A stretch of DNA of 64,000 bases from Vicugna vicugna. Taxonomy: Eukaryota. A program made the position numbers and the translations under genes. Numbering within the stretch: the first letter of the stretch is position 1; each line of letters starts with the position of its first letter. Positions 25,710-54,859 of this stretch are shown one piece after another. The DNA lies in contig MU057733.1 of assembly GCA_013265495.1 (NCBI GenBank), positions 1-64,000 on the forward strand, read 5' to 3'. Below the pieces are notes generated by a model, which saw only the letters and a list, made by a program, of their open reading frames with translations, did no database searches and was not told where the DNA came from.

Positions 25710-25949
25710 AAGGAAAAACACCCTGCACCCAAACCCCACACCCCGTGGCCTCTCTCTGGCCTTCTGAAGCAGCCTGCACTTGTCTATGCCGTGTGTATCT
25801 CTGAATAAATCTACATTTACTCAACTGTGGCTCACTCTTGAATTCTTTCCTATGTGAAGCCAAGGACCGCACTTGGCAGGGCATGTCCCGGGGACTTAAA
25901 TAAGACCTGGGACATGGCCATCTTCTAGCCTCACATTTTTCCTGTGTCA
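25710..25949 (+). mobile_element. ERV LTR 3' portion (R/U5)
   Basis: gccttctgaagcagcctgcac...aataaatctacatttactca...gaattctttcct...tgtca; shares motifs with the LTRs at 30.4 and 59.5 kb. Confidence 0.7.
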
Positions 25950-26404
25950 GTGTCTCGTTAAATCTTAAATCTTGATCCATTTATAACTGATGTTAAGGTT
26001 TATTTTGAGGAAAGGAGTGCTTTTTTGTTGTTGGTTTTCAGATGATCACCCTGCTGTCTGAACACCCTGCACTGATGCCCCCTTTATCATAGCCTGTCCT
26101 TCCGCATGTGTTTCCTAACACTTTTGGATTTTCTCTTCTATTATGTTTGTGTATTATTACATTTTTGTTTACTGTTTTAATGATTAGAACTTTATAACTG
26201 GATTATTTTTAAAAAATAGTACCAGCTGCACTACCAGTGCTGGCAGAAATTGGTCCTCTTCTGTTAGGTGTTTGCGCAGGAGGTGGGCATTCCCGGCACT
26301 TGAACCAGGAGTTTCCCTTTCCTTACGCCAGCCCTCTTCTCCACCCTCAGAGGCTAGTCATCCATTTATACACCGGGAATCACAGGTGAAGTCAGTGGAG
26401 AAAG

Positions 26405-26555
26405 GTCCTCTCCCTTCTCTTTCTTCATCTTCTTTCTCTTTTTCCTTCTCCCCTTCCCCTCACCCAACCGCATCCTCTTCTCTTTCTCCCCCTCTTCTTC
26501 TTCCTTCTTCCTTCTCCTTCAGCTTCTCTCTCTCCTCTCTGCCTGTCCCTCTCTA
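26405..26555. repeat. CT-rich low-complexity tract
   Basis: Pyrimidine-rich run of ttc/ctc/tcc. Confidence 0.8.
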
Positions 26556-28874
26556 GCACAAGGCCACAGACCCGCTGCTCCACCCAGCCTTGTCCAGGGA
26601 GACCCTCACCACCTACGTCTGCCCTGCCCATCTCTCATAAGGAAATTGCAGAGGATTAAGAAGTTCCCAGGACTTACCAAGAAATCTTGGTTTCCAGGGA
26701 AGCATCCCTCAGAGCCCTCCTGGATTTGGGGGGTGCGGGATTCCTAGGACAAGGGCACTGTACTGCGTGGTTCACCGTGGGACCTCCTCACGGGTCTCCC
26801 ACTGCTACTGCTGGCCCCTCATCCTCCCCACTGTTAGGAATCGACCACTTCCTGGGGACAGACACCTGTCTGGTCATGAGGCATTCTTTGAGAGGCAGCA
26901 GACATTCAGTGAATGTCTCTAGAATAAATTAGCACTAACATCACATAGATCTAGATATAGGATATTCCTTCCCACCAACGTGCAAGACTCCCTCAGGCTC
27001 GCCCTCAGTCAGTACTGTCAGCAGTGCACGTCCCCGCTGCTGGCCCCCAGCACCGTTGTTTCAGCCTGCTTTTCAACTTTGTCTATAAGACTCTCACTGT
27101 GCACACTCCAGAGGGTGTACCAGTTGGTTCACCAAGAAGAAGACACTAGACAGAGATAGAACAGTGACGGGTTTATTAGGGGTGACAACAGGATAGGCAA
27201 CAGCAGAGGGGGCAGGACTGAGCAGGGAGACACTCGGGCCGTAATGCACATCTGACATCTTCTCTAAATACATCGTTGCCACAGCTCAGGGTCCTCTTCA
27301 AATTTCAAACTGTTCTGTAAGGCAAGGAGATTTTGATTTATTTCAGTGAGATCCTGTTTTTTTCTCCTATATACATTTTGTCATCCATAGTGTATCTGGC
27401 CTCTGATGAACACTTTGATGTGTGTCTCCATCTGTGTGTCTATATGTAATGAAACTGTCTTCAGATCTGAGATATAGATCTCAGATCTTATATATTCTCA
27501 TAATTATCTTTTTTACTTTATTCTGCAGGATCTAAATTTTAATGGAAGAATGGGGGAGGGGCTTGCCTTACCCATTGAAACAGAGATTGCAAATCTCAGG
27601 GTCTGAAGCGTTAAAGGCTTAGTTTAATTTAATGTGCTTCAAAGTCCATCTTTTGATGACTTTCTGTGTGGAGACATTTTCTTTTAAACCATGAGAACGT
27701 GAGTGCCCCTCAGACATTCTGCAGATCTCTTGTGGACTTAATCCCATCTTCCTCTCATGGCATCAGAGAGCACACTTACACCTGTTGCACAAGTAATACT
27801 GCAGAAACTCTGTGGAGGCCCCACTGAGTCTCGGCCTTAGGGGCTGAACAGCAGGAACGAAAACAAAGAATTGGGATATTGTGACATAACCGTGGAAGAT
27901 GCAAAGCTGAGAGCTGGGGTGGTGACTAGAGGGAGCAGGGGTGTGGGGAGAGGGGTCCCCTGATCCCCCTTGGCTTCCCCCAAGGAACCTGCCTCGTGCT
28001 GAAGGGCCAGGCAGCTGCTCAGCTGACCTGGATCCTGGCTGCTCTTTTCAAAGCATTGGGCCTAATAAGTTCAGGCACACAGACTACCCTGAAAGAACCA
28101 AGTCAGTCTTCCCAAACATCCAGGGCATTCTTTCACCCAGATCTAGAACTTTCAGAAATCCAAGAGAAGCAGTTATCTTTATACGAGACTGTGAACTGAG
28201 GGCTTTCTGGCAGCAGTGGGTTCTGATGGGGATAAGGGCACGGCTGCACTGAGGCCCCCGCATACACACGTGGCTGTGCGAGGACCTCACGCTGCCTTCA
28301 CACGTCCCGCCCCAACTGCCTGCCCTGCCGGGAGTGACCTCCCAGCTCCATCTAAGTGAATCCAACAACCCCCCGCCGGGCATCTCCTCAATTTCTTCTT
28401 TCTCCTCCACAAACTCTGCTCTACTCCTGTGTGATTCACGTGCCCCCCTTTTGTACGCTGGGGCCCTGTGCTGGCACTTCTGTTATGAATGTCTCTCTCC
28501 CGTAATCTCTTGCCCACCCCTCCAGGGAGCACCTTGAGCCCTTGAAGTTAGGGGTGTGCTTCATCCATCACAGACTCCATCACATGGTCTGGGTACCAGG
28601 CGCAGCTGCAAAACTGGCGTGTCTAACTTTCTGTCAAAAGCCTCTTTCTTTCTCTACAAGAAGTGCTCGACGCCCAGCTCAGTTTGGGGAAATGATCAGC
28701 CCAATGTACGTGTGCCCTGAGAACCGTGAGGAATGAATGTTACAATGTCCTCAGTCAGGTTTACATCTGCATTGCAAAGCCCTCAGTGCCATCTCTACAT
28801 TGTCTCCAAAAACTCTTGAAGAACAAAGCTAGAAATACTTTACAAGTGGACTCATATTGCTCAGATCGTCTTAC

Positions 28875-29034
28875 CATATGGCGGAGGTGGAGACAGTGGG
28901 TGACAGCCCGGAGGGCACCAGGTTGGTCCAGGTGGAGGCGGCCAGTAGCCCGTGAATGGTGGAGGGCCGCCCATGAAGTAGGGCATGCAGGATGGTCCTG
29001 GGAAAGGACAGGGCTCTCCTGCATCCATACCAAC
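28875..29034 (-). CDS. MIA3: MIA3-like proline-rich exon, open
   Basis: VGMDAGEPCPFPGPSCMPYFMGGPPPFTGYWPPPPGPTWCPPGCHPLSPPPPY vs [50 protein letters not shown]; cag/gtaag; 160 bp. Confidence 0.8.
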
Positions 29035-30389
29035 CTGCAGAATAGAAGAGAGAGGGGTGTTGTATGACAGACCGAAGCGCCAACAGCAACAAAAGCTGAA
29101 ACCAACGCAGCAGCTATCAGCACCTGGCACCCTCCCCTCCACCAGGTTCCCTGAGAGCAGCACAGAGCCACAAACTCCACCCCCACCCCGGGTCCTGCCT
29201 GCAGCCTGGGCTGCACAGGACACCAAGGGGATAAAACACTGTCACCACACGTCACTGCCTGTGTCTGCAAGTGAGAAAGGCAAGGGTCCTGTCCTAGGGG
29301 ATGAACAGAGGTTCCAGCAAACTGAGAAAGTAGCGCCTTCCCGACAGCCAGCCTCTCTGTGCAGGACGGCCCTCCCCACCGCCTTTCCCAGCCCCACGGG
29401 AGCTGGCTCTTCGTGGACTAAGAACACAGAGGGAAGAAGGACGTGGAGAGCCTGTGCGCCACACGTGGAATCAGCTGCCCCTGGGTGCTCGCTCTGCCTG
29501 CAGGCCCCTGCCCGGCCCTCTCTGCTGCCTCCTGACAAAGGGCCCTTCACCTCCCTGGAGGGGCTGCCCCAGGGCACAAAGAGCTCTGGGAGGTGGGCAT
29601 CCTGCAGTCCTGTAGGGCAGCTGCGAAAGTGCTTCTGAGGGGACAACGCTGCCTACAGAAGGTTGTGGCTCAGCTCCAGTCATCTTTATTTACATGTAAT
29701 TCTGAATTTCAAGTACATTATGAGGTGCAGACTAAATTTGTCCTATAGAAAGACAATGTGGGAAGTCTAAATTCCACAACTAACACAAAAGTGATTTTAT
29801 GTCATGTGTAAAATTCCAGATGTGTGATGAGATACAGGAGCAGCTATAACAGCTTACAGGGCAGGACCGACCCTGCTTATAGGAATAAAATGCTTTGATG
29901 GGAATCGGCCCTGCAGGTAATCAGGCATTTTCACTGTGGGCTGTTCCATTGCAGGGTATGTTTTCTACTACAAATGGAACATCTCTGAGATTCAGGCTTT
30001 CATACCAAGAGTACAACTGGAGGGAGTCTGTAAGACACATTTACTTTCAGAGAAAAGACAGTAATGGGTTATTAAATTTACTATATCAAAGAAGAGTTAA
30101 ATTGCACAAGGCACACGTTATAAAGTTGGAGGGAGGACTTTCCTCATTTTTCAGTTATGAGGACTAGAATAGACATTCTAAACAGGAGAATCAGCTCCCC
30201 CAACCAGGAAAGGAACAAAATAGCAACAGTAATAATGTTTCAGTAGCCCAGGGGCAACCCCAAGTAAAGGAGACCAGGAAGGAGTCAGCGGTGCAGGAGA
30301 AGTAAGTGTGGAGTGAGGTGTCCCCATCCTCACGCTGAAGTGGGAGGAAAGGGGACAGGGCACAACCACTGAAGGAAGGACACAGCTAC

Positions 30390-30906
30390 TGAGGACAGGA
30401 CAAGCTGGTTAGAACCAAGATGGCGGAGGACTGGACTTCCAGTGGACCCTGAGCCTCATGGCGCACCCACAGGCGCCATGACAGATCCTAGGCTGACCAT
30501 TAAAGGTCAAAAAGTGGGCAGGGAGGCATTTCCTGGAAATCGTCACCCCTTTCCCAAAGTAGCTGAAGTAATCCCCCTACTCATTAGCATATGAAATTAC
30601 CGAGCCCATAAACCCAACAGCTCTGCACCTGGTGGTGACTCTCTCTTGCCTTCTGAGACAGCCTGCACTCTGTTTAGTTTACTTTAAACTAAACACCCCA
30701 CAGCCCTCAGTCTCTCTCCCTCTCACCGTTATGAGATGCCCACATTCTGCCAATGGAGTGTGTATCTCCTAAGCCATTTTCCCTTCCGAGCAAGAGGGAC
30801 TCCACTTATGGAGTATGTATCTCCCTAAGCAAACGTGCTTTCACTTTACCATGCCTTGCTCCTGAATCGTTTCCTGTGCAAGGCGAGAACCTGTTCTCCC
30901 TCGACA
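30390..30906 (+). mobile_element. ERV solo LTR in an intron of the MIA3-like gene
   Basis: Starts tgaggacagg; caagatggcgg, cccacaggcgccatg and gccttctgagacagcctgcactct are shared with the 59.5 kb LTR; ends approximate. Confidence 0.7.
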
Positions 30907-31162
30907 ATGTTATTTCAAGAAACACAGACAAAACCCGGCGGTCCTCAGCCTCGAAGCCCTTACGGCTTTTGTGGGCACCACCAAAGGTGATGGGCTGAAG
31001 GGAGAAGCCCACTGGCTCTTGGGGAAGAGTCTGAATTTGAAAAGTAATGACACAGTAGACATAGAGCACACAATCTAGAGACGAGGCCAAGAAAGAGTGC
31101 TGTTAAAAAAAAGACCAAAGTTCCCAGAAATAGTTACAACTGCAAATGACCACAGAATTTAC

Positions 31163-31242
31163 CTGGGCTTCCTCGGCCTCCTCAGCCTCCTCAGTAAGGC
31201 CGGCGCTGTCGTTCCTCATAGGGGCGGCACCGGGTCCTGAAT
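31163..31242 (-). CDS. MIA3: MIA3-like exon, open
   Basis: (D)SGPGAAPMRNDSAGLTEEAEEAEEAQ vs [27 protein letters not shown]; 80 bp; phase 1 to 0; cag/gtaaa. Confidence 0.75.
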
Positions 31243-31364
31243 CTGATAAAGGCAGAGCAGTGTTGAAGGTTTACTCTCTCTGACGGAGACCGTGTGGAGG
31301 AAGCACGAGGCCTTCATACCTTCCTCCAGGAGCTCACACTCCCGCCCGTGCCCCTGTCTCTTCA

Positions 31365-31431
31365 CAGAGGCACCGGGTCTCCCTCATGTCTCACGTGACC
31401 CCGAGGACGAGGGGACACTGGACCCCTGACT
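31365..31431 (-). pseudogene. MIA3: Decayed MIA3-like exon ([23 protein letters not shown] equivalent)
   Basis: agtcaggggtccagtgtcccctcgtcctcggggtcacgtgagacatgagggagacccggtgcctctg; indels, TGA and no GT donor. Confidence 0.55.
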
Positions 31432-32399
31432 CTTGACGAGGACACCACAGAGCCCTGGTTCAGGTGTTTCCATAACTAACCAACCTGGATGGGAGCTCAG
31501 GGCTCAAATCTCTGGAAATCAGCACTAAAACAGGGGACTCACAATACACTTCAGGGAAAATCACAATTTCTACAAAGGTTGAAAATTAAAAGAAGAGTCT
31601 TTCGTAGGAAGAGTATCAGCAACCCCTGAACATGAGCTCTCCCTCTCTCCCTCCTTAGCCCACTGGTAAATTTTTTAAATCTTTCAGTCTGATGCAATGT
31701 CTTATACAAGTGACCAGGTGTTTTGTAAGTGTTTATGAAAGAAGTGGCCTTAGAAAGACTAATATTGTAATAATGGGCAAAAGAATGGTGAAATATATGG
31801 AGAATTCTTTGGAAGACTTTAGAGTTAGACTTATAACTCTGGAAAAGTGATATTATGTTGTAATTTAACTTACCAATTGGCTACTCTAGATCACTATGCA
31901 ACATTTTTTATAAAGATGAAGGGACCTGCAAAATTAGTACAGAAAAGCCTGTTGTCTTAAAGCAGGTCTTGAATAGAATATTTATCCATCAAGACAAATG
32001 AAGAAAAATTTTTTCTCATCAGGACTTAATGCCTTCATTCTAAAATGTTGTGCATGTTGTTTTTCTCAAATAAAAGGAGAATTCAGCCTTCAACATTGTC
32101 TCCAGGTAGGAGGAGGGTGCCAATGCTCATTTCCTCTAGCACACAGAAACCAACCAAACCAACCTACCAAGAGGCTGCAGGGTGGCCCACAGTCCCTGGA
32201 GGGACATGAACTCCACCGTGCACAGGAAACAGAGTCCTGCTGGCTGGTGGCATGCGAAGAAAACAGCATCTTGTCAACCAGCTGAGAACCTGTTCTCTGC
32301 GGCGAGTGTATGGCATGGTGTCCAGGAAACCTAACGACTACCCATTTGGCGGCTTTGCAGCAGTAATGAAGCAGCTGCTCTTCACAGTGTGCTCCTTAC

Positions 32400-32494
32400 C
32401 TCTCAGTGGAGGATGCAACCTGTATGGTCCTCTTGAGATGGGTCCCTGCCTCGTATATTCCTCTGCCTGCCCCTGTCTGCAGATTTCTTCCAAT
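32400..32494 (-). CDS. MIA3: MIA3-like exon, open
   Basis: LEEICRQGQAEEYTRQGPISRGPYRLHPPLR vs [33 protein letters not shown]; phase 2 to 1; aag/gtaag; 95 bp. Confidence 0.75.
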
Positions 32495-32616
32495 CTTGAA
32501 GATGGAGAAAGAATGGTTTCAGTAAGAGTTACATCATCAATTCCTCTACTAAACACTAAACAGCTTACCACCCTTAAAAAAAACACCCTTAAAAATGTAT
32601 GTCAAAATTCTGTAAC

Positions 32617-32684
32617 TTGGTTTCAAGTAGGCAACCTCCCATCTCATCTCTCTCGTTGCCCTCCCCTGGTCCAGAGCCCAAGAT
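32617..32684 (-). CDS. MIA3: MIA3-like exon with apparent compensating indels
   Basis: 68 bp, cag/gttac. The shifted frame ALDQGRATREMRWEVAYLK resembles ARAAERAIAEEKREAANLR; the spliced frame is also open. Confidence 0.65.
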
Positions 32685-32763
32685 CTGTGGGGAGGGGGGA
32701 AGCACATCCACATTCAGTTGTGGCCGACTGTGCACACAGGGAAGGAAGGAAACACATTCTCAC

Positions 32764-32799
32764 CCAGTTATCTTGAGCCACCTCCTCAAGAAGAGCGAT
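32764..32799 (-). CDS. MIA3: MIA3-like 36-bp exon, open
   Basis: IALLEEVAQDNW vs IATHEKKAHENW; cag/gtgag. Confidence 0.8.
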
Positions 32800-32909
32800 C
32801 TGAAAAGTAAACACATCAAGAAACACCCCATGGTTAGGGATTCTCAGGGCCACAATGATTGTCTGCATCAGGTGCTAAGGACTCAGCATGTTAGGAAAAA
32901 GGCAAGTTC

Positions 32910-32970
32910 CCGGTATTTGAAGATATCCTCTGATTCCTGCATTTCCTGTTGCAATTCTTCAACTCTTCTC
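32910..32970 (-). CDS. MIA3: MIA3-like 61-bp exon, open but donor GA instead of GT
   Basis: RRVEELQQEMQESEDIFKYR vs [20 protein letters not shown]; tag acceptor; followed by gaactt. Confidence 0.82.
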
Positions 32971-33649
32971 CTATGAGTTACAAATTGTTTCATCAGATAA
33001 AACACAATGCTGGGTATGCCCAAGTCCACATTATCCAAACTACACATGTATATGCATTATCTAATCATATAAAACACATTTCATATTATGTACAGTAGTT
33101 TCAAAGCTATTGCTGCATTAATTCCTTCCTTAATTATTACTTAATGCCTGCCAGGTTCTGCGCTGACATAATTTGCTTTCCCATACTCAACATTTTCCTA
33201 ATTTATCCTGCATGGAGTATCTTTCATCATAAAGTTTGATTCTTCTTTTCCTTACATCCTTATCCTATTTCTCAGGCTTACAACAAGTGGGTCTCTCCAA
33301 CGGCATGGTCATATTTATTGATGTGATTGATGCTACAACAAACTGCTTTCCTAAGGTTGGTAACAATTTATATCATCTACAGAAACATCCTTGTGAACCA
33401 TCTTTCCACATAGTCCGGCCAGCACTGGGGACCAGGAAGTTCTTCGTAACTTAATCTTTTTAAAGTTAAAACTTTAACTTAATGTGTGTAAAACATAACA
33501 TTTTCCCCCTTGTGTGAAGTATCTATACAGATGTCTTCTGAACATTGGTTTTGGTCTGTGTGTGATATTGTGTCTAAACATTTTAGAAAAGTTAAAAAAA
33601 AATCCAACAGGGGTTTTCTAAGCCACGGGTGTTGAGGAGCTGAACTCAC

Positions 33650-33748
33650 TTGTACATTTGTATCTCTTCTTCAGCCAATTTCAACTTCTGCTCTACTGCT
33701 AATAGGTGCTTCTTTTCCACCAGCTCACATCCTTTCATGTCCAGCTTC
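33650..33748 (-). CDS. MIA3: MIA3-like coiled-coil exon, open
   Basis: KLDMKGCELVEKKHLLAVEQKLKLAEEEIQMYK vs [34 protein letters not shown]; phase 2 to 2; cag/gtgag. Confidence 0.8.
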
Positions 33749-35139
33749 CTGAGTGGGGAAAGAAACCCAGTGAAATTCTGCCATTATTTTCTCCCAGCAA
33801 TCTGAAGGGAAGAGTTCAATGTTCTTTCTGCCCTTCCCCATAAATACATAGACTGACAAATACAAAGGAAGAAATTAAAGGCCCCACTAATAGATATGAC
33901 AAAACTAAACTCAGGCCTCTGGCAAGTGTTTGGTATCTGAGCTTCCCTTCAGTCTCCATCCCTATTCATTTGTAGCTAAAGTAAACACACACATGAAAAG
34001 CCCACATGAAGTGCACTCTGCCCTCCCAGGCTCAGGCTCCTGTGACGGGGACAGTGTGAGCTCACTGTGTTTCAGTGTGGAAAACAGAGCCTGCCCAAGT
34101 CATCACAACCAAACACATCAGGATGAAGCAGGCATTTGTGATTTATTTGTGGAGAGCCCTGCTTTTCAGTCAAAGCCTTGACAAAACCTGATTCTTCACG
34201 GAATATAATAGAATGTTTGCTTTTTAATGTGGGTTGATGGGTGTGATGTCCTTGACCTCCTCCTGAGAATGACGGGAAATGCTGGACAAATTATGAAATT
34301 CATGATCAAAGGTACCAAATTGCTAACAAGCCAGGAAGGAACATGAGGCCAAGATGGAGAAGAAGGAAGCCTAGGACTAAGGTCAGCCTGGCATTTAGGG
34401 CCACCTTCCCCAAGGGTCCTCCATTAGCTGCAGAGGAAAGTACTGAGATGCAGAGCAGCCCAGCAGCTGGTGCCCCCGCCCCCCACGCACGGGCACCACA
34501 ATCAGACAACTGGAGCTCATGGTCCTTCAGCAAAGGTGATCCCTAGAAACGCCCACAGGCCTCAGCTGGGACCCATGAGAGTTAAGTGCCAGGAATAAAG
34601 GTGGACAGGAGACACACTGGCCTCAGGAGGGCTGAGCCTACACTGAGTGATCTCCATTGCTAACTGGGTTCACAGGATGCAGCACTGCTGGCGCTCTGAT
34701 CACCTGCCAGCAGTAAACCCTCATCTTCTCTGCAGCAAGTTAACCTCACACTAGGCGCCAAATTTTCTCTATTTTCTACTCAATGTCTAGAGTTTAATGA
34801 AAGATGACAGATGCATGGCAGGTTGTTACAACATGATGGGACTGAAACCTGAGGGCAATGAAAATGGACCCAGTGGATCCAGATAATGAAGAGATCAAAT
34901 CTAGTCCCAGTACCCACTCCAATCTCAAACTAATTACAAACAGGTACTCTGGTAACCAGTTAGAGTGGAATGGAAGATGCAGATTACAGAAATCAAGGCA
35001 GAAAAGTAAACACAAATCTGTACTTACTGAATATGGTAATAAAAGATACGGTGGCATGTACTCTAAAGCGTATTATAGCATCTACATGGTTCCACATTCA
35101 TTCACACGATTTATCATAATTAACACATGAACACCTTAC

Positions 35140-35275
35140 TCTTCTGCGTCCTTCTTTCTTTGTCCACAGATTCCTTCAAGAAAGTCCACGTTCTTCTGCC
35201 TGAGGAATTTGGCTTCCTTGCCCACTTTCACAGACCCCGATGCAGCATGGCAGTCTTGCCTTTTCTTTTTACTTT
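35140..35275 (-). CDS. MIA3: MIA3-like coiled-coil exon, open
   Basis: ESKKKRQDCHAASGSVKVGKEAKFLRQKNVDFLEGICGQRKKDAEE vs [47 protein letters not shown]; phase 1 to 2; cag/gtaag. Confidence 0.78.
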
Positions 35276-35414
35276 CTGTAAAGCATGAAACAATTGTCTT
35301 TGTACGTGTACATGTGCACTCAAGAACTTGGTTGTGGTGGGGAGTGGAGAAAGGAGACAATCTTGGAGGCAGGAATCCATTATTTACCCTCCCAGTGCAA
35401 ACTCATTTCTACTA

Positions 35415-38400
35415 CAGGCATGTCTCATTTTATTACTCTTCATCGAACACGTATTTTTTACAAAAGCCTTGTGACAACCCTGAGTCCAGCAAGTCTATCA
35501 GTGACACTTTTTCCAACCTCATTTGCTCATTTCTAGTCTCTGTGTCACTTTTGGTAAGTCTTAAAATATTTCCATCTTTATCCTTACCCATTCCTTTAAG
35601 GCAAAGCCCAACCCAGAGAAGTCCCTAACTCTCATTTATTCTATGAAACCAGAGAGAGATACAGAGGCTACAAAAGAAATGTCTGAAGCCAGCAGATTTT
35701 GGTCCATGAAGTTTAAGGAACGATTCCATCTCCACTATATAAATGTGCAAGCAAAGCAGGAAGAACTAATCCAACAGCTGCTGCAAGTTATCCAAGAGAC
35801 CAAGCTAAGACAATTAATGAAGGTGGCTAGACTAAACAACAGGTTTTCAATGCAGAAAATTGGAAGAGGAGACCATCCAGCACTTTCATAGCTGGAGAGA
35901 AGTCAGCACCTGGCATCAAAGCTTCAGTGGACAGGCTGATTTTCTTGGTAGGGGCTAATGCAGCTGGTGACTGTCACTTGAAGCCAATGCTCATTTAACA
36001 TTCTGAAAATCCTACATCCCATAAGAATTATGCAGAATCTACTCTGTGCTCTATAAATGGAACAAAGTCTGGGTGACAGCGCATCTGTTTACAACATGGT
36101 TGACTGATGATTTTAGCCTGCAGTTGAGACCTACTGCTCAGAAAAGGAAAACATTCTGTCAAAATAGTACTGCTCAGTGACTGTGCACCTAGTCACCCAA
36201 AAGCCCTGATGGAGATGTATGAGATAAACACTATTTTCATGCTTGATAACAACATCCATTCTGCAGCCTGTGGATCCAGGAGTCATTTTGACTTTCAAGT
36301 CTTATTATTTAAGAAATACATTTTGTAAGGCTATAGCTGCCACCTATAGTGATACCACTGATGCCATGGTTTCAATAGCATTGGTTCACTCCATGACTTC
36401 ATGTCACATTTCTGTAATCTTGCAATATATCCCCATCTTTATCATTGTAAAGAAATAAAATATATTTGTTGAGGTGACCGGGGATCAGTGATTGTTCATG
36501 TGACTTTTGCAACTATTTTGGAGCCCCACAAACTGTTCCCAATAAGAGACATCAAACTTAACTGATAGATGTTGTGTGTGTTCTAACTGCTCCACAAACC
36601 ATCTCTTCCCTCATTTCCCCCTTTCCCTTCAGGCCTCCCTATTCCTTGAGACAAAACAATGTTGAAATTAGGCCAATTAACAACCTTACATTGTACTCTA
36701 TGAGTTCAAATGAAAGAAGGTGTAGCATATTTCTCACTTTATGTTAAAAGCTAGAAATGATCAAGCTTAGTGAGGAAGGCATGTCAAAAGATGAGATAGG
36801 CAGAAAGCTAGGCCTGTTTCCCCAAACAGATATCCAACTTGTGAAGGCAAAAAACAAACAAACAAACAAACAAACAAAACCTGAAGCAAATTAAAGTTTT
36901 ACTCTTGTGAACACGAGAATGATAAAAGGAACAGCCTTAAAGCAGATCCAGAGAAAGTTTCACTGGTCTGGACAGAAGATCAAGCCAGCCACAACATTCC
37001 CCTAAGTCAAAGTCTAATCTGAAGAAGGCCCTAAGTCTCTTCAATTGTATGAAAACTGAGAGGGGAGGAAGCTGTGGAAGAAAAGTGTGAAGCTTATGGA
37101 GGTTGGTTCATGAGATTTAAGTAAAGACGCCGTCTCCATCACATAAAAGTGCAAGGTGAAGCAGAAAGTGTTGGTGCAGAAGCTGCAGAAAGTCATCCAG
37201 AAGGTATGGCTAAGATCATTAAAGGAGATGGCTAAACTAAACACCAGGTTTTCATTACAGACGAAACAGCCTTACATTGGAAGAAGACACCCCCTAGAAC
37301 TTTCACGGCTAGAAAGAAGTTAATGCCTGGCTTCAAAGCTTCAAAACAGGCTGAGTCTCTTGTTAGTCTCTTGTTAAAATGCACTTAGTCAGTTTAAGTT
37401 TTGAAGCCAATGCTCACTTACCATTCTGAAGATCCTAGGGCCCTTAAAAATTATGCTAAATCTACTCTGCCTCTGCTCTGTAAATGAAACAACAAAGCCT
37501 GCATGACAGCACAACTGGTTACAACACGGATGACTGAGTATTTTAAGTCCACTGTTTAGACCTTCTGATCAGAAATAAACATTCTTTTCAAAATATTACT
37601 GCTCACTGACAACTCACCTGGTCACCCAAGAGCGCTAATGGAAATGATATTAATGCTGTTTTCATGGCTGCTAACACAATATCCATTATGCAGCCCATGG
37701 CTCGAGCAGTAATTTGACTTTCAGGTCTTAGTATTTAAAAAATAGATTCTGTAAGGCTATCGCTGCCATACATAGCAACTTCTCTGATGGATCTCAACAA
37801 AGCAAACTGAACGAATTCTCCATTTTAGATGCCACTTAGGAATATGAGTGGCGTCAGGAGAGGGGAAAGTATCAACAGACAGGGAAGTTTGCAACAGGCT
37901 GATTCCAGTCCTCATGGATGACTCTGAGGCGTTCAGACTTCACAGCAGGAAGTAATTGCAGATGTGTGCAAATAACAAGAAACTAGAATTAGAAGTGAAT
38001 CCTGAAGATGTGACTGAACTGCTGAAATCTCATGATAAAACTTTCAGAAATGAGAAAGTGCTTCTTAAGGATGAGCAAAGAAAGTGGTTTCCTGAGATGG
38101 AATCTACTCCTGGTGAAGAGGTGAAGACTGTTGAAGTGGAAGAATGGAGTTGGAACAGCATATAAACTCAGCTGATAAAGCAGCAGCGGGGTTCAGAAGG
38201 GTTGACCACAATTGTGAACGAAGTTCTACTGTGTTTACCAAACAGCACTGCATGCTACAGAGCAATTGTTCACGAAAGGAAAAGTCAGCTGATGCTGTGG
38301 CAAACTTCCTTTTGCCTTAAGAAATTGCTAAAATAAAAGAAAAGAAATTGCTACAGCCACTCTATCCTTCAACAAGTAGCACCCTGATCCGTCAGCGGCC

Positions 38401-38676
38401 CTCAACATCGATCCAAAACAGTCCACCAACAAAAAGATGATTCTCTGAGGCTCAGACGATGGTTAGTAGTTTTCAGCAGTAAAGTATTTTTTACCAAAGG
38501 TATGTACATTTTTTTAAACATAATGCAATTGCTTACCTTAATAGACTACAGAATACTGTAAACACACCTTTTATACTATATGCACTGGGAAACCAAAAAA
38601 CTCATGAGACCCACTTTGTTGTGGTAGCCACTGTGGGGGCCCAGAACTAAGCCTGCAATACCTCCCGGGAAGGCTG
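35415..38676 (+). mobile_element. Tigger1 (Tc1/mariner-pogo) DNA transposon, near full length with an internal duplicated segment
   Basis: TA|caggcat start and ggctg|TA end; decayed transposase motifs ([46 protein letters not shown]). Confidence 0.9.
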
Positions 38677-38709
38677 TACACGGGGTTTTCTTCCCAACAA
38701 GGAACATAC

Positions 38710-38782
38710 CTTCCAGGCTGCATTCATGAGATGTCAAGGCTCTGTGCTTCGAATCCTCAAATCCTGCCCTCAGAATGCTTGA
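38710..38782 (-). CDS. MIA3: MIA3-like exon, open
   Basis: SSILRAGFEDSKHRALTSHECSLE vs [25 protein letters not shown]; phase 0 to 1; cag/gtatg; 73 bp. Confidence 0.72.
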
Positions 38783-38982
38783 CTGCAAGACAGATTTGAG
38801 AAAGCATATTCAACAAGACTGTACACATGTGAATGTACTTAACACTAACACAATGTAGACTTGAAAATCATTGTTGTGGTAAATTTTAAGTTTTTTAAAA
38901 ATAAGAAACTTAAAAAAGGAATAATCATAGCCTGGGATCAGATCTCTGATTTATATAATCTTTAAAACATACATTTTGTTAC

Positions 38983-39069
38983 CTGATCCTTCTCGTTCTC
39001 AAGCTGAGCATTTTTCTTCTGGACATGATGTTCTTTACTGACATGAACTCCATGAAGGGAGAACTGAAC
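38983..39069 (-). CDS. MIA3: MIA3-like exon, open (in-frame shortened)
   Basis: VQFSLHGVHVSKEHHVQKKNAQLENEKDQ vs [35 protein letters not shown]; tag/gtaac; 87 bp. Confidence 0.8.
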
Positions 39070-39260
39070 CTAAAACAGTCTCACTAATGACTTAGTTCCC
39101 AAGAACAAAAATCCTCAAGCAGATAACATAGAAATTTAACATTCTAAGACATGACATACTTGTTCTTCATCAAAGCTAAGCTGTACAACAGAACTCTGTA
39201 GCTAACAAAGTTAATTTACATCTGGAATTTCTGAGATGTTCATTTCAGTAACAACTTTCA

Positions 39261-42200
39261 GGGCAGGGTGGTGGGGGTTAGTGCCAAGACAGCCGAGTAG
39301 AAGGATGCTCTTAGCTCACCCTCTCCCACAAATACCTCAAGAGATACATCTGCAGACCCACCCATTCGCTCTGAACCCCTGCTGAACTTTGGCAGAATAT
39401 CTCTTACTTCAAAAGAAAAAATTTCTCACAGCAGCTGCTTGGCTGACAAAACTGACAGAAACCAACACAAAGGGTCCCTGCGATCAATCCTCAGCTCTGC
39501 ACACAAGCTGGTAGGGGTGGGCCAGAACTGGCTGCTGGAGGCCGGGTAGAGGGCTAGGGCCGACTGTGCAGAGGCAGTCTCAGGTGGCTGGGGTGTGCTG
39601 TAGGTGGTGGTTGGGGGTGTATACAGAACAGAATAGCCTGGGATCCCCACAAAAAAGCAACACTGCTGGTGCACATGGGGGTGAGGGGTGCAACAGAGCC
39701 AGGCCATAGCCACTGTCTCCCAAGCTCATAGCAACACTGTTGATGCATTCTCATGAGACGAGAGGTGGGGTTCAGTCAAGCCATCATACTAGCTGGTGCA
39801 GGGCTCCTGGGTGGAGGTGGGTGAAACCTGAATCCATACCCAAGGGCCCTGCAACTTCACAGGCGAGACTGAGATTTCTTTGCAGCCCCAGGCAGAGGGG
39901 GCGGATTTGGTCCATGGGTGCCTTTGTGGGCACGTGCCTTTAGGACAAGTGAGCAAAGAGCAGAGTTCTGGTGCACCGCACAGGCACAGGCAGCCTTTTC
40001 AGCAGATCTGCATAACGTATGCAGACTTGGCACTGGGGATGGTGCTGACCCAGTAACACACCACGGACCCACATGTGTGATTGCACTATCACTGTGGTAG
40101 GTCCTAGTGCCGGATGTTGGCAGATCTGCACTGCTGGCTCTGAGGGCACACATCTGTAAAACAAACAAGCAACAAGTAGAGTTCTGGTGCACCACAGGGA
40201 TGGGTACAGGTACAGTGTTTTCAGTGGACCTGTGTACTGTACATAGACTGGGTGCTGGGAATGGTGCTGACCCGGTAAATGGACCTTGGATCCACTACAT
40301 AAGCAAGAGAAGAGACATAAATCACATGATCACCTCAATAGATGCAGAAAAAGCATTTGATAAAATTCAACACCCATTTATGATAAAAACTCTTTGCAAA
40401 GTGGGTATAAAGAGAACATATCTCGATGGAATAAAAGCTATTTATGGCATCCCACAGCCAGCATAATACTCAACAGTGAAAAGCTGAAAGCCTTCCCACT
40501 AAAATCTGGAACAAGACAAGGATGCCAATTTTCACCATTTCTACTCAACATAGTCTTGAAAGTCCTAGCCACAGCAATCAGGCAAGAGAGAAATAAAAGG
40601 GATCCTAGTTGGAAGAGAAGAGGTAAAATTATCACTATTTGCAAAAAACATGATACTATATATAGAAAACCCTAAAAGCACCACACAAAAACTACTAGAG
40701 CTGATAAAAGAATTCAACAGGGTTGCAGGATAGAAGATTAACAGGCAGAAGTCAGTTGCATTTCTTTACATTAACAATAAAAAAATCAGAAAAAGAAAGT
40801 AAAGAAACAACCCCTTTTAAAATTGCATCCAAAACAATAAAATACTTAAGAGTAAATCTGACCAAAGAGGTGAAAGACTTGTATGTGGAGAACCACAAAA
40901 CATTGATTAAGAAAATTAAAGATGACTTAAAGAAATGGAAAGATATCCCATGCTCTTGGATTGGAAGAATCAATATTGTTAAATGGCCATACTGCCCCAG
41001 GCAATCTACAGATTTAATGCAATCCCTAGCAAATTACCCAGGATATTTTTCACAGAACTAGAACAAATAATCCTAAAATTTATGTGGAATCACAAAAGAC
41101 CCAGAATTGCCAAAGCATTACTGAAGAAAAGGAACAAAGCTAGAGGAATAACACTCCCAGACTTCAGATAATCCTATAGAGATACAGTAATCAGAACAGT
41201 GTGGTATTGGCACAAAAACAGACATGTGGATCAGTAAGACAGAACAGAGAACCCAGAAATAAACCCACAGACATACAGTCAATTAATCTTTGACAAAGGA
41301 GAAAAGAATATACAATGGAGAAGAGACAGTCTCTTCAGTAAGTGGTGTTGGGAAAACTGAGTAGCAGCATGTAAATTAATGAAGTTAGAACACTCCCTCA
41401 CACCATACACAAAAATAAAGTCAAAATGGCTTATAGACTTAAATATAAGACAAGACACTATAAACCTCCTAGAAGGAAACATAGGCAAAACATCCTCTGA
41501 CATAAATCTTAGCAATGTTCTCCTAGGGCAGTCTACCCAGGCAATAGAAATGAAAGCAAAGATTAACAAATGGGACTTAAGTGAACTTATAAGCTTTTGA
41601 CAGCAAAGGAAACTATAAACAAAATAATAAGACAACTTATGCAATGGGAGAAAATATTTGCAAATGATGTGACTGACAAAGTTTTAATTTCCAGAATATA
41701 TGAACAGCTCATACAAGTTAATAACAAAAAAACAAACAACCCAATCCAAAAATGGTCAGAAGACCTAAGCAAGCAGTTCTCCAATGAAGACATGCAAATT
41801 GCTGATAGGCACATGAAGAAATGCTCAATATTCCTAATTATATGAGAAATGCAAATCAAAACCACAATAACGTATCACCTCACACTAGTCAGAGTGGCCA
41901 TCATTCAAAAGTCCACAAACGATAAATGCTGGAGAGGCTGTGGAGAGAAGGGAACCCTCCTACACTGGTGGTGGGAATTTAGTTTGATGTTGCCATTATG
42001 GAAAACAGTATGGAGAGTCCTCAAAAAACTAAAAATAAACTTACCATATGATCCAGCAATCCCACACCTGGGCATATATCCAGAGGGAACTCTAATTCTA
42101 AAAGATATATGCACCCCAATGTTCATAACAGCACTATTTACAATAGCAAAGACATGGAAACAACCTAAATGTCCATCGACAGATAACTGGATAAAGAAGT

Positions 42201-43279
42201 TGTGGTTTGTTTATACAATGGAATACTACACAGCCAACAAAAAAAATAAAATAATGCCCTTTGCAGCAACATGGATGGACCTGGAGATTGTCATTCTAAG
42301 GGAAGTAAGTCAGAAAGCAAAAGGAAAATACCATATGATATCACTTACATGTGGAATTTAAAAAAGGAAAAAGAAGACACTAAGGAACTCATCTACAAAA
42401 CAGAAACTTATCTACAAAACAGAAACAGACTTGCAGACATAGTAGACAATCTTATGGTTACCGGCGTGGGGAGGAGTGAGTGGGAAGGGATAAATTTGTG
42501 AGTTCGAGATTTGCAAATATTAACTGCTATGTATAAAAATAGATTTAAAAAGCATATTTCTTCTGTATAGCACAGGGAACTATATTCAATACCTTGTAAT
42601 AATATTTAATAAAAAAAGAACAAGAAAATGAATATATGTATATATATACATATACATAAATACATATACATACACACATATATGTATGAGTGGGACATTA
42701 TGCTGTATACATGGATAAAGAAGTTGTGGTTTGTTTATACAATGGAATACTACACAGCCAACAAAAAAATAAAATAATGCCCTTTGCAGCAACATGGATG
42801 GACCTGGAGATTGTCATTCTAAGGGAAGTAAGTCAGAAAGCAAAAGGAAAATACCATATGATATCACTTACATGTGGAATTTAAAAAAGGAAAAAGAAGA
42901 CACTAAGGAACTCATCTACAAAACAGAAACTTATCTACAAAACAGAAACAGACTTGCAGACATAGTAGACAATCTTATGGTTACCGGCGTGGGGAGGAGT
43001 GAGTGGGAAGGGATAAATTTGTGAGTTCGAGATTTGCAAATATTAACTGCTATGTATAAAAATAGATTTAAAAAGCATATTTCTTCTGTATAGCACAGGG
43101 AACTATATTCAATACCTTGTAATAATATTTAATAAAAAAAGAACAAGAAAATGAATATATGTATATATATACATATACATAAATACATATACATACACAC
43201 ATATATGTATGAGTGGGACATTATGCTGTATACCAGAAATTGACACATTGTAAGTGACTATTCTTCAGTTAAAAAAAAA
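39261..43279 (+). mobile_element. L1 LINE with 5' UTR, large internal deletion (ORF1 and N-terminal ORF2), decayed RT/C-terminal ORF2, duplicated 3' end and poly(A)
   Basis: G-rich 5' end with caagacagccgagtagaagga; ORF2 motifs [56 protein letters not shown]-tail 43271-43279; degenerate TSD cagtaacaactttca / aaataacacctttaca. Confidence 0.93.
42188..43233 (+). repeat. Near-perfect ~523-bp tandem duplication of the L1 3' region
   Basis: Identical ORFs at 42271-42501 and 42794-43024; the only difference noticed is A8 vs A7 in one run. Confidence 0.95.
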
Positions 43280-43956
43280 GAAATAACACCTTTACAAATA
43301 CTCTGTAGATTTTTCCTTTCCACTGTGTGCATGTAGGATGGAAACATAACATGTACTAGGATTTCAAAAGAAACACTAGGCCATGTGCTAAAAAGAAATG
43401 TCTAGTAGCACATCCCATACCAGCCTTTGTGTCATTAAAGCAGCTGATCTAGTTTGGGCCAAAGAGAAAAGTCAAACACATGGAAGTTGTAAGAAGGTAT
43501 AAATAGTTCATGGGAAGTTGAATTTCCTGCTTTCAAGACAATGGATTAGTCAACTGAGTGACAAGGCTAAATAAAGGTCTGAAATCTTTCAAGCCATGCA
43601 GCTTAAATGAATGAGTTTTCCTAGTGAAAGATACGTACTGTGCCCAGATTCACTGTGAAAATTCTCTGCTTTTATTAAGAGGGGTAGGACTGTTCAATGT
43701 GGCTTGAAATCTATAGGATTCTCTTCTACAGTTTCTCAGTTCTATTTTTCTTAAAGGGTAGTGCTAAACTATATAAAAATTACCCAGGTTCGTGAATGAA
43801 ATTATTCCTAGGCCCTTAAATTTAAAAAAAAGAAATGTTACTGTGGTATTAATACTTGAAATGAGCAGCATGGAAGAATGCAGGGTCTAATTCACCCAAC
43901 ACACAAAAAAGCCTCAGAAACCAAATGACAGTAACACTGAGTGGCAAAATTCTCAC

Positions 43957-44067
43957 CAAGTTCCGATTCTTGACACTCTGATCTCTCTTAGATTGCAGTT
44001 CAGTATGTATATCTTGAATGACATCATCAAGGATTTCATTCATCTTCTCAAGTGTTTTGATATCATC
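43957..44067 (-). CDS. MIA3: MIA3-like coiled-coil exon, open
   Basis: DDIKTLEKMNEILDDVIQDIHTELQSKRDQSVKNRNL vs [37 protein letters not shown]; 111 bp; tag/gtgag. Confidence 0.9.
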
Positions 44068-44166
44068 CTACAAGAAAACACAGAGGTCAGTAATAGCCAC
44101 TCATTACTTTACTTCTGTTTTAGTGGTCTGTAATCTCAGAAAAAGAAGGGTTTTTGTTTTTTTAAC

Positions 44167-44244
44167 CTTAAATCTATGTACTTCATTGGAGAGAATCTTA
44201 TTTTCCCTCATGGCTTCTTTAGTACATTTCTTTATTTCGTTGAT
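44167..44244 (-). CDS. MIA3: MIA3-like coiled-coil exon, open
   Basis: INEIKKCTKEAMRENKILSNEVHRFK vs [26 protein letters not shown]; 78 bp; tag/gttaa. Confidence 0.87.
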
Positions 44245-44505
44245 CTATACAATTATGTAAGAATGGATTCAGAAATCAAAACCATTAATTATAGCAAAAC
44301 CGATCTCCTGTGGGTGAGTCCTTACAGAAACAAAGAAAACAGTACTTTACGTGGGTATGATGTTTGCTTTGAACGGGCAAATATAATGAATATAATGAAA
44401 CGGAACACCAGGAGGAAAGAAGAGACAGTGAAGTCAGTGAGCTAGAAGGAGGCAGACGTCCTTCAAGGGGAGGCCATGAGAATGGGAATGAAGGGATGAT
44501 TATGC

Positions 44506-44594
44506 CTTCTGTGTGCACCTGCATATTTCTTCTACAAGTTCTGAGTTTTCGTTCATGCAATGCTTGATCGCCTCAGAAATTCGGTATAAATTAA
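44506..44594 (-). CDS. MIA3: MIA3-like coiled-coil exon, open, GC donor
   Basis: VNLYRISEAIKHCMNENSELVEEICRCTQK vs [30 protein letters not shown]; 89 bp; in-frame ATG at 44556-44554. Confidence 0.87.
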
Positions 44595-46150
44595 CTAAAA
44601 AGAGATAAAAAAAAAACAATCTCTAATATTATCACCAAAACAAGCAAAATCAGATTACCCCAACATTTCAAAAGCAAAGCCACATTATCCTGGTACTCTG
44701 AGCAAAAATATCCTTTCAGCATTACTGTGATCCCTGAAGAAGGCAAATTTAGTTAGTAGCATTTTAAATGTAAAAAACAAATGTGAAGGTAAGAACTCTA
44801 TTAAAGTGAGATTCCTATTCAACCTTTCTTCAAAAATGGGGAAACACAATACAATGTCTCCACCTAATATCACATCATTAAGGAACATACAGCTTAGAAA
44901 ATGTCAACGGTTCAAATAGCACCTCCATCAATAGATACAGAAGAGAAAAAAATCAAACACCCTATGTACTTAAATGTTGTCCTCCTGTCACCAATAAAGT
45001 AAGCAGATTGTTGCAACTGCTTTAAAAAATCAAAAGAAAGAAGAAAATTCCTGACTTCTTCCAGATTTTCCCCACCTCCACCCACAGTTTAAATTACCCA
45101 GAGAAATCTTTCTAATACCACTTGCTTGGTTACTCAGACCTCCAATGTCTTCCTGCTGCCCAGAAAATTTCCTTTCATAAGAACCAGGGTGGGTGGCTTG
45201 GAAGGACACAGCTGTTGGAATCACACACCTTTGGGTACAACCTTGGCTTTACCACTTACTTGCTGAGAACACGAACACCTTACAATCTGAGTCACAAGGG
45301 TCATCAGCCCCAGACGCGAAGGTTTTCATGCACCGTGTAGGTAAACACTCGCCTTACAGGTGGATAACACCATGGAAAGCCCCGAGAGCAGGGACCAGGA
45401 TGCCACAACCTCCTGCCAGGCATTTAATTATATTGTCTGACCCCAAAGTACAGACTTACCCTCTATCTTAACAACGTGACATCTCTGCTGCCCTGAGGTC
45501 ACACCTCTCTATACCCTACCCTGGGGGTGCACTTCGCCACAAGAAACACCCGCATTCGAGGACCTAATAAATGTGTGCCAGACGGCTGTCCTGCCTCCCC
45601 ACACACAGCTCCACATAACCGTCACAGCCTGGGAAGCCTGCACAGACCTCATTATCCGCATTTTACATCCTTTCATTTCCACTCATTCGTTAGTGACATT
45701 GAAGCTCCTTCCACTGAGGACTCAACGCATAGTTGAAGCCTCTGCTGTGACACACACTTTGACTGGCGATACCTGTCTTCATCTCTAAGCCGTAAGTTTG
45801 ATAACCTCAGACAGTATCGTAATCTTTACACTTCCCCGTGAGCCAGGTCAGGCCAAAGTACTTCCCTCAAACTTCAGACTCACCAGATTCCCTAACTTTT
45901 CTAAATGGAATTAAATGCACCCGCTTCTTCCTACCAGTGTGACCTGTTCCTTCTCCTGGGCTCCTGTCTCAACAGGTGGTGACTCAATCCTAAAATGCTG
46001 TCATTTAGGCCACAAACCAGGAAAAGTAAAATTATGAAGAGGCAAATTAGACCTGAGAAGTCAAGGTATTTACATCCACTCAAATTAGAACCAACACAAA
46101 CACCTGTACTGAGAAAATATTACAAAGAAAACAGAAGCCTGAAATCGTAC

Positions 46151-46172
46151 CTTGAAATATTTGAGGCTTTAC
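46151..46172 (-). pseudogene. MIA3: MIA3-like 22-bp micro-exon, acceptor mutated (AA)
   Basis: VKPQIFQ+G vs VKDRVYQ+G; donor gtacg; preceded by tctcttctaa. Confidence 0.7.
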
Positions 46173-51884: not shown

Positions 51885-52012
51885 AGCAAGGATCGTCTTC
51901 CAGAGGTAAATGGCCAGGATAGCAATCCCCAGGCAGGCAGCAAGGAGAGACTTCAAAGGAAACCATAAAAGTCAGGGCCAGGATGAAGGTGGTCAGGCAC
52001 CACACCAAGGAG
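51885..52012 (-). pseudogene. MIA3: MIA3-like transmembrane exon, disabled
   Basis: LLGVVPDHLHPGPDFYGFL/KSLLAACLGIAILAIYLWKTILA vs [44 protein letters not shown]; 128 bp (frameshift giving TGA); acceptor tttcac; donor gtgagt. Confidence 0.88.
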
Positions 52013-54709: not shown

Positions 54710-54859
54710 CTGTAAACAAGGAGACAAACCACTGCATCTACGATTTAGAGTCGTCAAGGCTTCAGCCTACGGATACTTTCATCAGTAAGCCCTCTTCAAA
54801 CTGCTTTTGTAAAAGTAAAGACTAAAGCAGCAGGAACAGCCCAGAAAACCCGAGGGTCT

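What the first reader, a model, noticed from the sequence alone, without database searches (positions are those of the whole stretch)
28875..44594. Hidden TANGO1/MIA3 paralogue whose surviving exons still splice into one long open frame
Seen: 13 minus-strand exons (44594-44506, 44244-44167, 44067-43957, 39069-38983, 38782-38710, 35275-35140, 33748-33650, 32970-32910, 32799-32764, 32684-32617, 32494-32400, 31242-31163, 29034-28875) join in compatible phases with no stop codon. They give about 378 aa from the ATG at 44556, although by eye well under half the residues match human MIA3. The neighbouring OTOF copy is less diverged at protein level yet full of frameshifts. Known: TANGO1 coiled coils bind cTAGE5, and its proline-rich domain binds Sec23 at ER exit sites. 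Inference: this copy stayed under coding constraint for a long time while evolving fast, so it may belong to an undescribed lineage-specific TANGO1-like family, still active or only recently disabled.
Basis: partly seen in the sequence, partly recalled or inferred. Interest (0 to 1): 0.85.

Follow-up and report, generated by a model that had tools for sequence, protein, structure and literature searches.

The report
Broken duplicate of camelid TANGO1-like gene
The exons are real, but they belong to a recently disabled duplicate of a small, fast-evolving TANGO1-like gene that has multiplied in camelid genomes, and an open frame like this is what a young pseudogene often still shows by chance.

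Summary
The 13 minus-strand exons join into one open frame of 378 codons from the ATG at 44556. All 13 acceptors are AG, but only 11 of 13 donors are GT.

The locus is not hidden. [quoted passage not shown]

The same genome holds a colinear sister copy on contig C4763, 84-95% identical over about 33 kb. Its spliced frame is intact and matches P0001 at 391 of 397 residues.

Against that sister, the window copy has six structural lesions:
- the start ATG is lost through a 17-nt deletion;
- a 22-nt micro-exon has lost its acceptor;
- the exon 1 donor is GC;
- the exon 8 donor is destroyed;
- exon 10 carries a +1 insertion;
- exon 10 has a mutated donor.

Exon and intron divergence are 3.2% and 4.2%, and dN/dS is 0.63, not significantly below 1. 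An open frame is expected by chance in 23-47% of trials.

Verdict: a young unprocessed pseudogene. It belongs to a eutherian-wide, fast-evolving short TANGO1-like family that expanded in camelids. RNA evidence could not be obtained.

The parts
23374..56322 (.). Segmental-duplication block colinear with contig C4763 (44,504-74,346) of the same genome
   Evidence: blastn: successive colinear pieces at 84-95.5% identity. No match outside this block except short repeats.
54561..54626 (-). Remnant of the first coding exon. A 17-nt deletion (about 54593/54594) removes the ancestral ATG. An upstream ATG at 54626 falls in frame by accident.
   Evidence: Alignment with C4763, whose ATG is at 72655. The GT donor after 54561 is kept.
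51885..51950 (-). Membrane-anchor (hydrophobic) exon, 66 nt, open, AG acceptor and GTGAGT donor
   Evidence: tblastn to P0001 residues 17-40; alignment with C4763; boundaries fixed.
46151..46172 (-). 22-nt micro-exon whose acceptor is AA instead of AG. The neighbouring AG would put TAA in frame.
   Evidence: The C4763 copy (67343-67322) has TAG|GTA...GAG|GTAAGA. Skipping it puts the anchor exon out of frame with exon 1 (frame 0 stops after 13 codons).
44506..44594 (-).
44167..44244 (-).
   Evidence: A homologous stretch is present in reindeer P0002, muntjac P0006 and alpaca P0013.
43957..44067 (-).
   Evidence: 7 of 111 nt differ from C4763.
38983..39069 (-).
38710..38782 (-).
35140..35275 (-).
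   Evidence: 196/196.
33650..33748 (-).
32910..32970 (-). The donor is destroyed by a 1-nt deletion (GTAACT in C4763, G-AACT here).
32764..32799 (-).
32617..32684 (-). A +1 T insertion lies near its start, and the ancestral donor is mutated (AAG|GT to AAGTT), which leaves a weak GT one base upstream. Its length stays 68 nt, so 22 codons are read in a shifted frame.
   Evidence: The ancestral frame is 100% identical to P0001 over 20 residues.
32400..32494 (-).
31163..31242 (-).
28875..29034 (-). It is identical to C4763 and lies in a tract where the 1,561-nt downstream intron differs at only 8 sites.
27298..27314 (-).
   Evidence: Same peptide end as P0001; C4763 has TAA.

Best explanation
The 13 exons are the surviving exons of an unprocessed, intron-bearing duplicate of a short TANGO1-like gene.

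The intact sister copy lies on contig C4763 of the same genome. [quoted passage not shown] That protein has a short N-terminus, one hydrophobic anchor, coiled coils and a short proline-rich tail.

The window copy arose by a segmental duplication of about 33 kb. It has since lost its start codon, the acceptor of a 22-nt micro-exon, the GT of two donors and the frame of exon 10. By ordinary splicing it can therefore no longer make the membrane-anchored protein.

The frame across the 13 exons is still open because the two copies differ by only about 3% in exons, and parts have been homogenised by gene conversion.

Shown: the homology, the duplication, the lesions and the lack of significant constraint.

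Inferred:
- that the copy is non-functional as a protein gene;
- that it may still be transcribed;
- that the intact family members act at ER exit sites like TANGO1-short/cTAGE5.
For: - Exon 13 is 100% identical to alpaca P0001, and 12 of 13 exons map to P0001.
- C4763 is colinear with window 23,374-56,322 at 84-95.5% identity.
- The spliced C4763 frame is fully open and equals P0001 at 391 of 397 residues.
- Six lesions are present in the window and absent in C4763:
  - a 17-nt deletion of the ATG;
  - micro-exon acceptor AG to AA;
  - exon 1 donor GT to GC;
  - exon 8 donor lost by a 1-nt deletion;
  - a +1 insertion in exon 10;
  - a G to T change in the exon 10 donor.
- Exon mismatches are 41/1,275 (3.2%) against 722/17,051 (4.2%) in introns, after I dropped three badly aligned segments (upstream, after the anchor exon, after the last exon). 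Fisher p=0.08.
- Nei-Gojobori counts are 10 synonymous and 24 non-synonymous differences, dN/dS 0.63, P=0.16.
- By simulation, an open frame is kept by chance in 47% of trials with 17 substitutions and 23% with 33.
- Alpaca P0010, an 'uncharacterized protein' on the same record as P0001, resembles the window copy in exon 3 (97% against 84% for C4763). It reads the anchor exon out of frame without the micro-exon, as expected if the window-type copy was already broken in the common ancestor.
Against: - There is no stop in 1,173 nt.
- In the 3' half, exons differ less than introns (10/725 against 337/10,624, p=0.005). Gene-conversion tracts, such as 8/1,561 beside exon 13, can explain part of this.
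- The exon 10 insertion and the donor shift cancel each other, so the downstream frame is kept.
- GC donors can be functional.
- I polarised the 24 non-synonymous differences with 13 outgroup paralogues. 9 are derived in the window copy, 9 in the intact copy and 6 are unresolved. The window copy is therefore not evolving visibly faster in residues than its intact sister.
- The one- and few-base lesions rest on a single assembly and could not be checked against reads.
- No RNA data could be laid.
Confidence: 0.8

Rival explanations
1. The window copy is still a working gene. It would make an anchor-less, cytosolic coiled-coil and proline-rich protein from the internal ATG at 44556, using the GC donor of exon 1, an unusual donor at exon 8 and the new donor of exon 10.
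For: The frame is open over 378 codons plus a proper terminal exon with a stop. The exon 10 shift is compensated. 3'-half exons are less diverged than introns. Nine ancestral residues are retained where the sister changed.
Against: The exon 8 donor is GA, and the next GT downstream brings a TGA into the exon (read from the alignment). The start, the micro-exon and the anchor are lost. dN/dS is not below 1. An open frame is expected by chance in 23-47% of trials.
Confidence: 0.07
2. The lesions are assembly or consensus errors, and the window holds a second intact paralogue.
For: Two of the six lesions are single-base indels, the kind that assemblies get wrong. The genome is fragmented (12,405 contigs).
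Against: Three lesions are substitutions and one is a 17-nt deletion. The alpaca model P0010 independently skips the micro-exon in a window-like copy.
Confidence: 0.05
3. The copy is protein-dead but transcribed, as a non-coding or regulatory pseudogene RNA of the family.
For: Alpaca has a transcript-based model (P0010) from a window-like copy.
Against: There is no laid read evidence. The words held may come from the sister copy or from repeats.
Confidence: 0.3

Closest known systems
MIA3 / TANGO1, short isoform (TANGO1S)
   Same: The layout is the same: hydrophobic anchor, cytosolic coiled coils and a C-terminal proline-rich tail. The best named long relatives are TANGO1 homologues (E about 1e-16 to 1e-12). 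The intron-bearing gene structure is also shared.
   Different: The protein is about half the length (414 aa against about 785 aa for mink TANGO1S, P0056). It is only 30-38% identical in the matched part. It sits in a separate, long-branched eutherian clade. P0001 has no SH3 domain and no Pfam family at E<=0.01. Function at ER exit sites is untested.
MIA2 / cTAGE5
   Same: It has the same general anchor, coiled-coil and proline-rich layout. The Atlas feature search puts MIA2-named clusters among the nearest (score 0.96).
   Different: Sequence searches reach a named cTAGE5 only at 4e-8 (fish P0109), weaker than TANGO1.
Primate CTAGE retrogene family (CTAGE1, 4, 6, 8, 9, 15; recalled, not from a call)
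   Same: It is a lineage-specific multi-copy family derived from a TANGO1/cTAGE5-type gene.
   Different: The primate copies are intronless retrocopies (recalled). The camelid copies keep 16 or more introns and spread by segmental duplication.
NPIP (morpheus) / LCR16a core duplicon of primates
   Same: - NPIP is a fast-evolving gene that spread by interspersed segmental duplication, with fusion transcripts (PMC7419210, passages read).
- The Pfam NPIP model PF06409 matches TANGO1 proper at 42-44 bits and many short family members at 22-45 bits.
- A preprint noted NPIP-MIA3 similarity (10.1101/116087, passage read).
   Different: P0001 itself has no NPIP match. None of the 123 scanned representatives, out of 150 listed hits, scores like a true NPIP. 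The mouse lemur member P0068 has no NPIP match at E<=0.001. Orthology is untested.

Membership tests
TANGO1/MIA3-like (MIA/cTAGE superfamily) | Significant sequence similarity to the cytosolic coiled-coil part of TANGO1 | tested here: met
   P0001 hits swallow TANGO1 at 6.8e-16 and swan and gerbil TANGO1 at about 5e-16 to 2e-15. Window exons map to P0001.
TANGO1/MIA3-like (MIA/cTAGE superfamily) | Hydrophobic membrane anchor upstream of the coiled coils, joined in frame | tested here: not met
   The anchor exon is present (51950-51885). The micro-exon that links it in frame has lost its acceptor and the ATG is deleted. The feature is met in the sister copy C4763 and in P0001.
TANGO1/MIA3-like (MIA/cTAGE superfamily) | C-terminal proline-rich domain that binds Sec23 | not testable with these tools
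   Exon 13 encodes a proline-rich tail with three runs of three or more prolines. Binding was not tested.
TANGO1/MIA3-like (MIA/cTAGE superfamily) | Lumenal SH3 domain (long isoforms only) | tested here: not met
   Pfam finds no SH3 in P0001, whereas full-length TANGO1 hits carry SH3_2. The protein resembles the short isoform only.
Intact protein-coding gene | Start codon, canonical splice sites at every junction, one ancestral frame | tested here: not met
   There are six lesections relative to the intact sister copy, and 11 of 13 donors are GT.
Intact protein-coding gene | Purifying selection on this copy | tested here: inconclusive
   dN/dS is 0.63 with 34 differences, P=0.16. Exon against intron divergence gives p=0.08 overall, 0.60 for the 5' half and 0.005 for the 3' half.
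Intact protein-coding gene | Spliced transcripts from this copy | not tested
NPIP (PF06409) | Match to the Pfam NPIP model above its cut-off of 27.5 bits | tested here: not met
   P0001 matches 0 families at E<=0.01. Some relatives pass: reindeer 27.8, alpaca P0026 30.1, rabbit 38.1, zebu 44.3. So does TANGO1 proper.
Processed (retro-) pseudogene | No introns | tested here: not met
   Introns are kept and are colinear with the sister copy.

The most novel reading that the evidence does not exclude
Camelids have undergone their own burst of interspersed segmental duplication, seeded by a fast-evolving, eutherian-wide short TANGO1-like gene. This would be a camelid counterpart, and possibly the orthologue, of the primate NPIP/LCR16a core duplicon.

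The supporting features are:
- copies on many chromosomes;
- fusion gene models with actin, ankyrin and JAKMIP parts;
- long C-terminal repeat expansions;
- an intact copy that keeps its frame and splice sites while changing residues as fast as its dead sister.

The window copy would be one casualty of that process.
Probability: 0.35. Interest if true: 0.65.

Novelty: new member of a known kind. Interest (0 to 1): 0.33.

Why it matters
The window copy itself is an ordinary young pseudogene.

The family behind it is worth a note. Small TANGO1-like genes occur across placental mammals under automatic names only. They evolve several times faster than MIA3 and have multiplied in camelids: family exons lie on 18 contigs here, and alpaca paralogues lie on at least 10 different records.

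If the intact members act at ER exit sites, they could modulate or compete with TANGO1/cTAGE5.

If the expansion behaves like a core duplicon, camelids would offer an independent case to compare with primate NPIP.

I found no paper on this in three full-text searches.

Tried and rejected
RNA evidence:
- The look-up of sequencing runs listed 24 runs. Four runs recorded as RNA hold 0.27-0.28 of the words of window 28,800-35,300, and DNA-like runs hold 0.67-0.69.
No junction, variant or expression evidence exists, and the shares above are not evidence.

Other steps that led nowhere:
- The earlier-findings look-up returned nothing.
- A Pfam scan of 125 window ORFs of at least 100 aa gave no family for the finding's exons.
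- The Atlas structure search gave TM scores of at most 0.35, and the Atlas model of P0001 is poor (pTM 0.18), so I attempted no fold.
- I did not fold or dock anything, because coiled-coil and disordered proteins with no partner in hand would not change the verdict.

Ideas considered and rejected:
- Haplotig: 4-7% intron divergence is too high, and alpaca has both copy types.
- Retrocopy: the introns are kept.
- MIA2 origin: the similarity is weaker than to MIA3.

Left open:
- Orthology with NPIP: none of the 123 scanned representatives scores like a true NPIP.
- Whether the neighbouring ferlin fragment is OTOF: only FerB was confirmed.
- A frameshift in exon 3 of the alpaca window-like copy is suggested by the P0010 protein alone and was not checked on DNA.
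Full report
**1. The observation**

Joining the 13 minus-strand pieces gives 1,173 nt with one frame open throughout. From the ATG at 44556 this is 378 codons, with no stop and no terminator. All 13 acceptors are AG. Eleven of 13 donors are GT; exon 1 has GC and exon 8 has GA. Each exon sits in a stop-to-stop frame only slightly longer than itself, as expected for real exons in a stop-rich background.

**2. What the exons are**

The proline-rich exon 13, searched against longer proteins, returned one hit at 100% identity. [quoted passage not shown]
- a hydrophobic anchor exon upstream at 51950-51885;
- a different reading frame for exon 10, 100% identical to P0001 over 20 residues;
- five more codons after exon 13.

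The terminal piece with a TGA lies at 27314-27298, behind an AG. A 22-nt micro-exon lies between the anchor exon and exon 1. The homologous stretch is present in the reindeer, muntjac and alpaca P0013 proteins, and it is open in both copies.

**3. The sister copy**

The window's own genome is held (2.03 Gb, 12,405 contigs). Contig C4763 (115.6 kb) is colinear with window 23,374-56,322 in successive blocks of 84-95.5% identity. That is far too diverged for a haplotype.

Spliced according to the alpaca model, the C4763 copy is open from the anchor exon to a TAA. It equals P0001 at 391 of 397 residues, and its first exon carries the ATG. C4763 is therefore the orthologue of the annotated alpaca gene, and the window holds a paralogue.

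**4. Lesions of the window copy**

Exon-by-exon alignment shows six structural changes in the window copy that are absent from C4763:
- A 17-nt deletion removes the ATG. An upstream ATG at 54626 falls in frame by accident.
- The micro-exon acceptor is AA. The adjacent AG would place TAA in frame.
- The exon 1 donor is GT to GC.
- The exon 8 donor is lost by deletion of the T. The next GT downstream brings a TGA into the exon.
- There is a +1 T insertion at the start of exon 10.
- A G to T change hits the exon 10 donor and leaves a weak GT one base upstream.

The last two cancel in length. There are also two in-frame indels: 3 nt in exon 4 and 9 nt in exon 12. Without the micro-exon, the anchor exon runs into a stop 13 codons into exon 1 (frame 0).

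**5. Is this copy under constraint?**

A MAFFT alignment of the two loci gives 41 mismatches in 1,275 exon positions (3.2%). Introns give 722 in 17,051 (4.2%), after I dropped three badly aligned segments: upstream, after the anchor exon, and after the last exon. Fisher p=0.08.

| Region | Exon mismatches | Intron mismatches | Fisher p |
|---|---|---|---|
| 5' half | 23/438 | 385/6,427 | 0.60 |
| 3' half | 10/725 | 337/10,624 | 0.005 |

The 3' half contains clear conversion tracts. Exon 13 and the 1,561-nt intron below it differ at 8 sites only, and exon 6 with its flanks is identical.

Nei-Gojobori counts are 10 synonymous and 24 non-synonymous differences, dS 0.041, dN 0.026, ratio 0.63. Ten or more synonymous changes out of 34 have P=0.16 under neutrality. 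Random substitution of the sister's 13-exon sequence leaves no stop in 47% of trials with 17 changes, 23% with 33 and 17% with 40. The open frame is therefore no evidence of constraint at this divergence.

One result cuts the other way for the family. I polarised the 24 replacements with 13 outgroup paralogues. Nine are derived in the window copy, nine in the intact copy, and six are unresolved. The intact gene changes residues as fast as its dead sister, yet it kept every splice site and its frame in two species while the sister collected six lesions. Selection there seems to act on the integrity of the protein rather than on most residues.

**6. Age**

Intron divergence of 3-6% corresponds to roughly 7-31 million years for rates of 2.2e-9 to 1e-9 per site per year (the rates are assumed, not measured).

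Alpaca has a second model on the same record as P0001, namely P0010, a 234-aa 'uncharacterized protein'. Its exon 3 is 97% identical to the window copy and 84% to C4763. It reads the anchor exon out of frame and goes straight to exon 1 without the micro-exon. This suggests that the duplication and the micro-exon defect predate the split from alpaca, and that the window-type copy is transcribed in alpaca. The inference rests on a protein model only.

**7. The family**

Searches with P0001 and name look-ups show two things.

Alpaca has many paralogues, named 'TANGO1 homolog' or 'uncharacterized protein'. Judged by record length, they lie on at least 10 different records. Some carry long C-terminal repeats (P0012, P0013), and some are fused to actin, ankyrin or JAKMIP parts.

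Short relatives of 350-500 aa also occur in reindeer, muntjac, zebu, horses, mustelids, bears, rabbit, armadillo, mouse lemur, tree shrew and guinea pig.

A quick maximum-likelihood tree of 30 rows gives these results:
- All 20 short proteins fall in one clade (SH-aLRT 90), apart from a vertebrate MIA3 clade (95).
- End branches of the short proteins are several times longer.
- Seven alpaca representatives form one camelid clade (100), with P0001 branching first.
- Alpaca P0026 lies outside the camelid clade.
- The root position of the short clade is unresolved and may be affected by long branches.

In the window's genome, family exons lie on 18 contigs including the window. One or two of these may be MIA3 or MIA2 proper.

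**8. Relation to known families**

Named long hits are TANGO1 (about 1e-16), while a named cTAGE5 appears only at 4e-8. The Atlas feature search lists MIA2- and MIA3-named clusters at 0.94-0.96.

The Pfam NPIP model matches TANGO1 proper (42-44 bits) and many short members (22-45 bits). It does not match P0001, and none of 123 scanned representatives, out of 150 listed, scores like a true NPIP.

A preprint notes similarity of NPIP to MIA3 (10.1101/116087, passage read). [quoted passage not shown] Whether the short TANGO1-like family is that orthologue is open.

**9. What could not be done**

Three full-text searches found no paper on a camelid TANGO1-like expansion. Supplements were not consulted.

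**10. Verdict**

The exons and the open frame are real. The locus is a young, unprocessed pseudogene copy of an automatically annotated, fast-evolving short TANGO1-like gene (confidence 0.8). Its interest lies mainly in the family expansion behind it.

Noticed in passing
window 16904-17347 (+): An ORF holds a FerB ferlin domain (Pfam 35.5 bits; Atlas FerB clusters at 0.93). Near-copies at 65-88% identity lie on at least five other small contigs, two of them in tandem on C4392. The ferlin fragment is therefore itself a multi-copy duplicon. It is absent from C4763. Which ferlin it is (OTOF or another) was not settled.
   Followed up: partly
window 15079-16086 (-): Two adjacent ORFs match the squalene/phytoene synthase family (SQS_PSY, 31.7 and 48.8 bits) on the strand opposite the ferlin fragment. 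This may be a retrocopy or a further duplicated fragment.
   Followed up: no
window 40101-40672 (+): There are reverse-transcriptase (RVT_1) fragments of a LINE-like element inside the large intron between exons 3 and 4.
   Followed up: no
window 27315-29034 and C4763 48779-50498: Exon 13 and the 1,561-nt intron below it differ at only 8 sites between the copies, against about 3-6% elsewhere. This looks like a recent gene-conversion tract.
   Followed up: partly
proteins P0015, P0060, P0116, P0036, P0104 and others: The Pfam NPIP model (PF06409) matches the anchor and first coiled-coil part of full-length TANGO1 of birds and reptiles above its cut-off, and it also matches many short TANGO1-like proteins. 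NPIP therefore appears to be a TANGO1-derived family.
   Followed up: partly
proteins P0009, P0088, P0014, P0021, P0061, P0012, P0013: Some camelid gene models fuse the TANGO1-like part to actin, ankyrin repeats or a JAKMIP coiled coil. Others add four to eight tandem C-terminal repeats of roughly 137 residues. This may reflect real chimeric genes in duplicated regions or annotation artefacts.
   Followed up: no
window 46151-46172 and C4763 67322-67343: In the micro-exon, the broken window copy keeps the residues shared by the outgroup paralogues at two of the four differing positions (one more is shared with a single outgroup), while the intact copy and alpaca P0001 carry derived residues at those positions.
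   Followed up: partly
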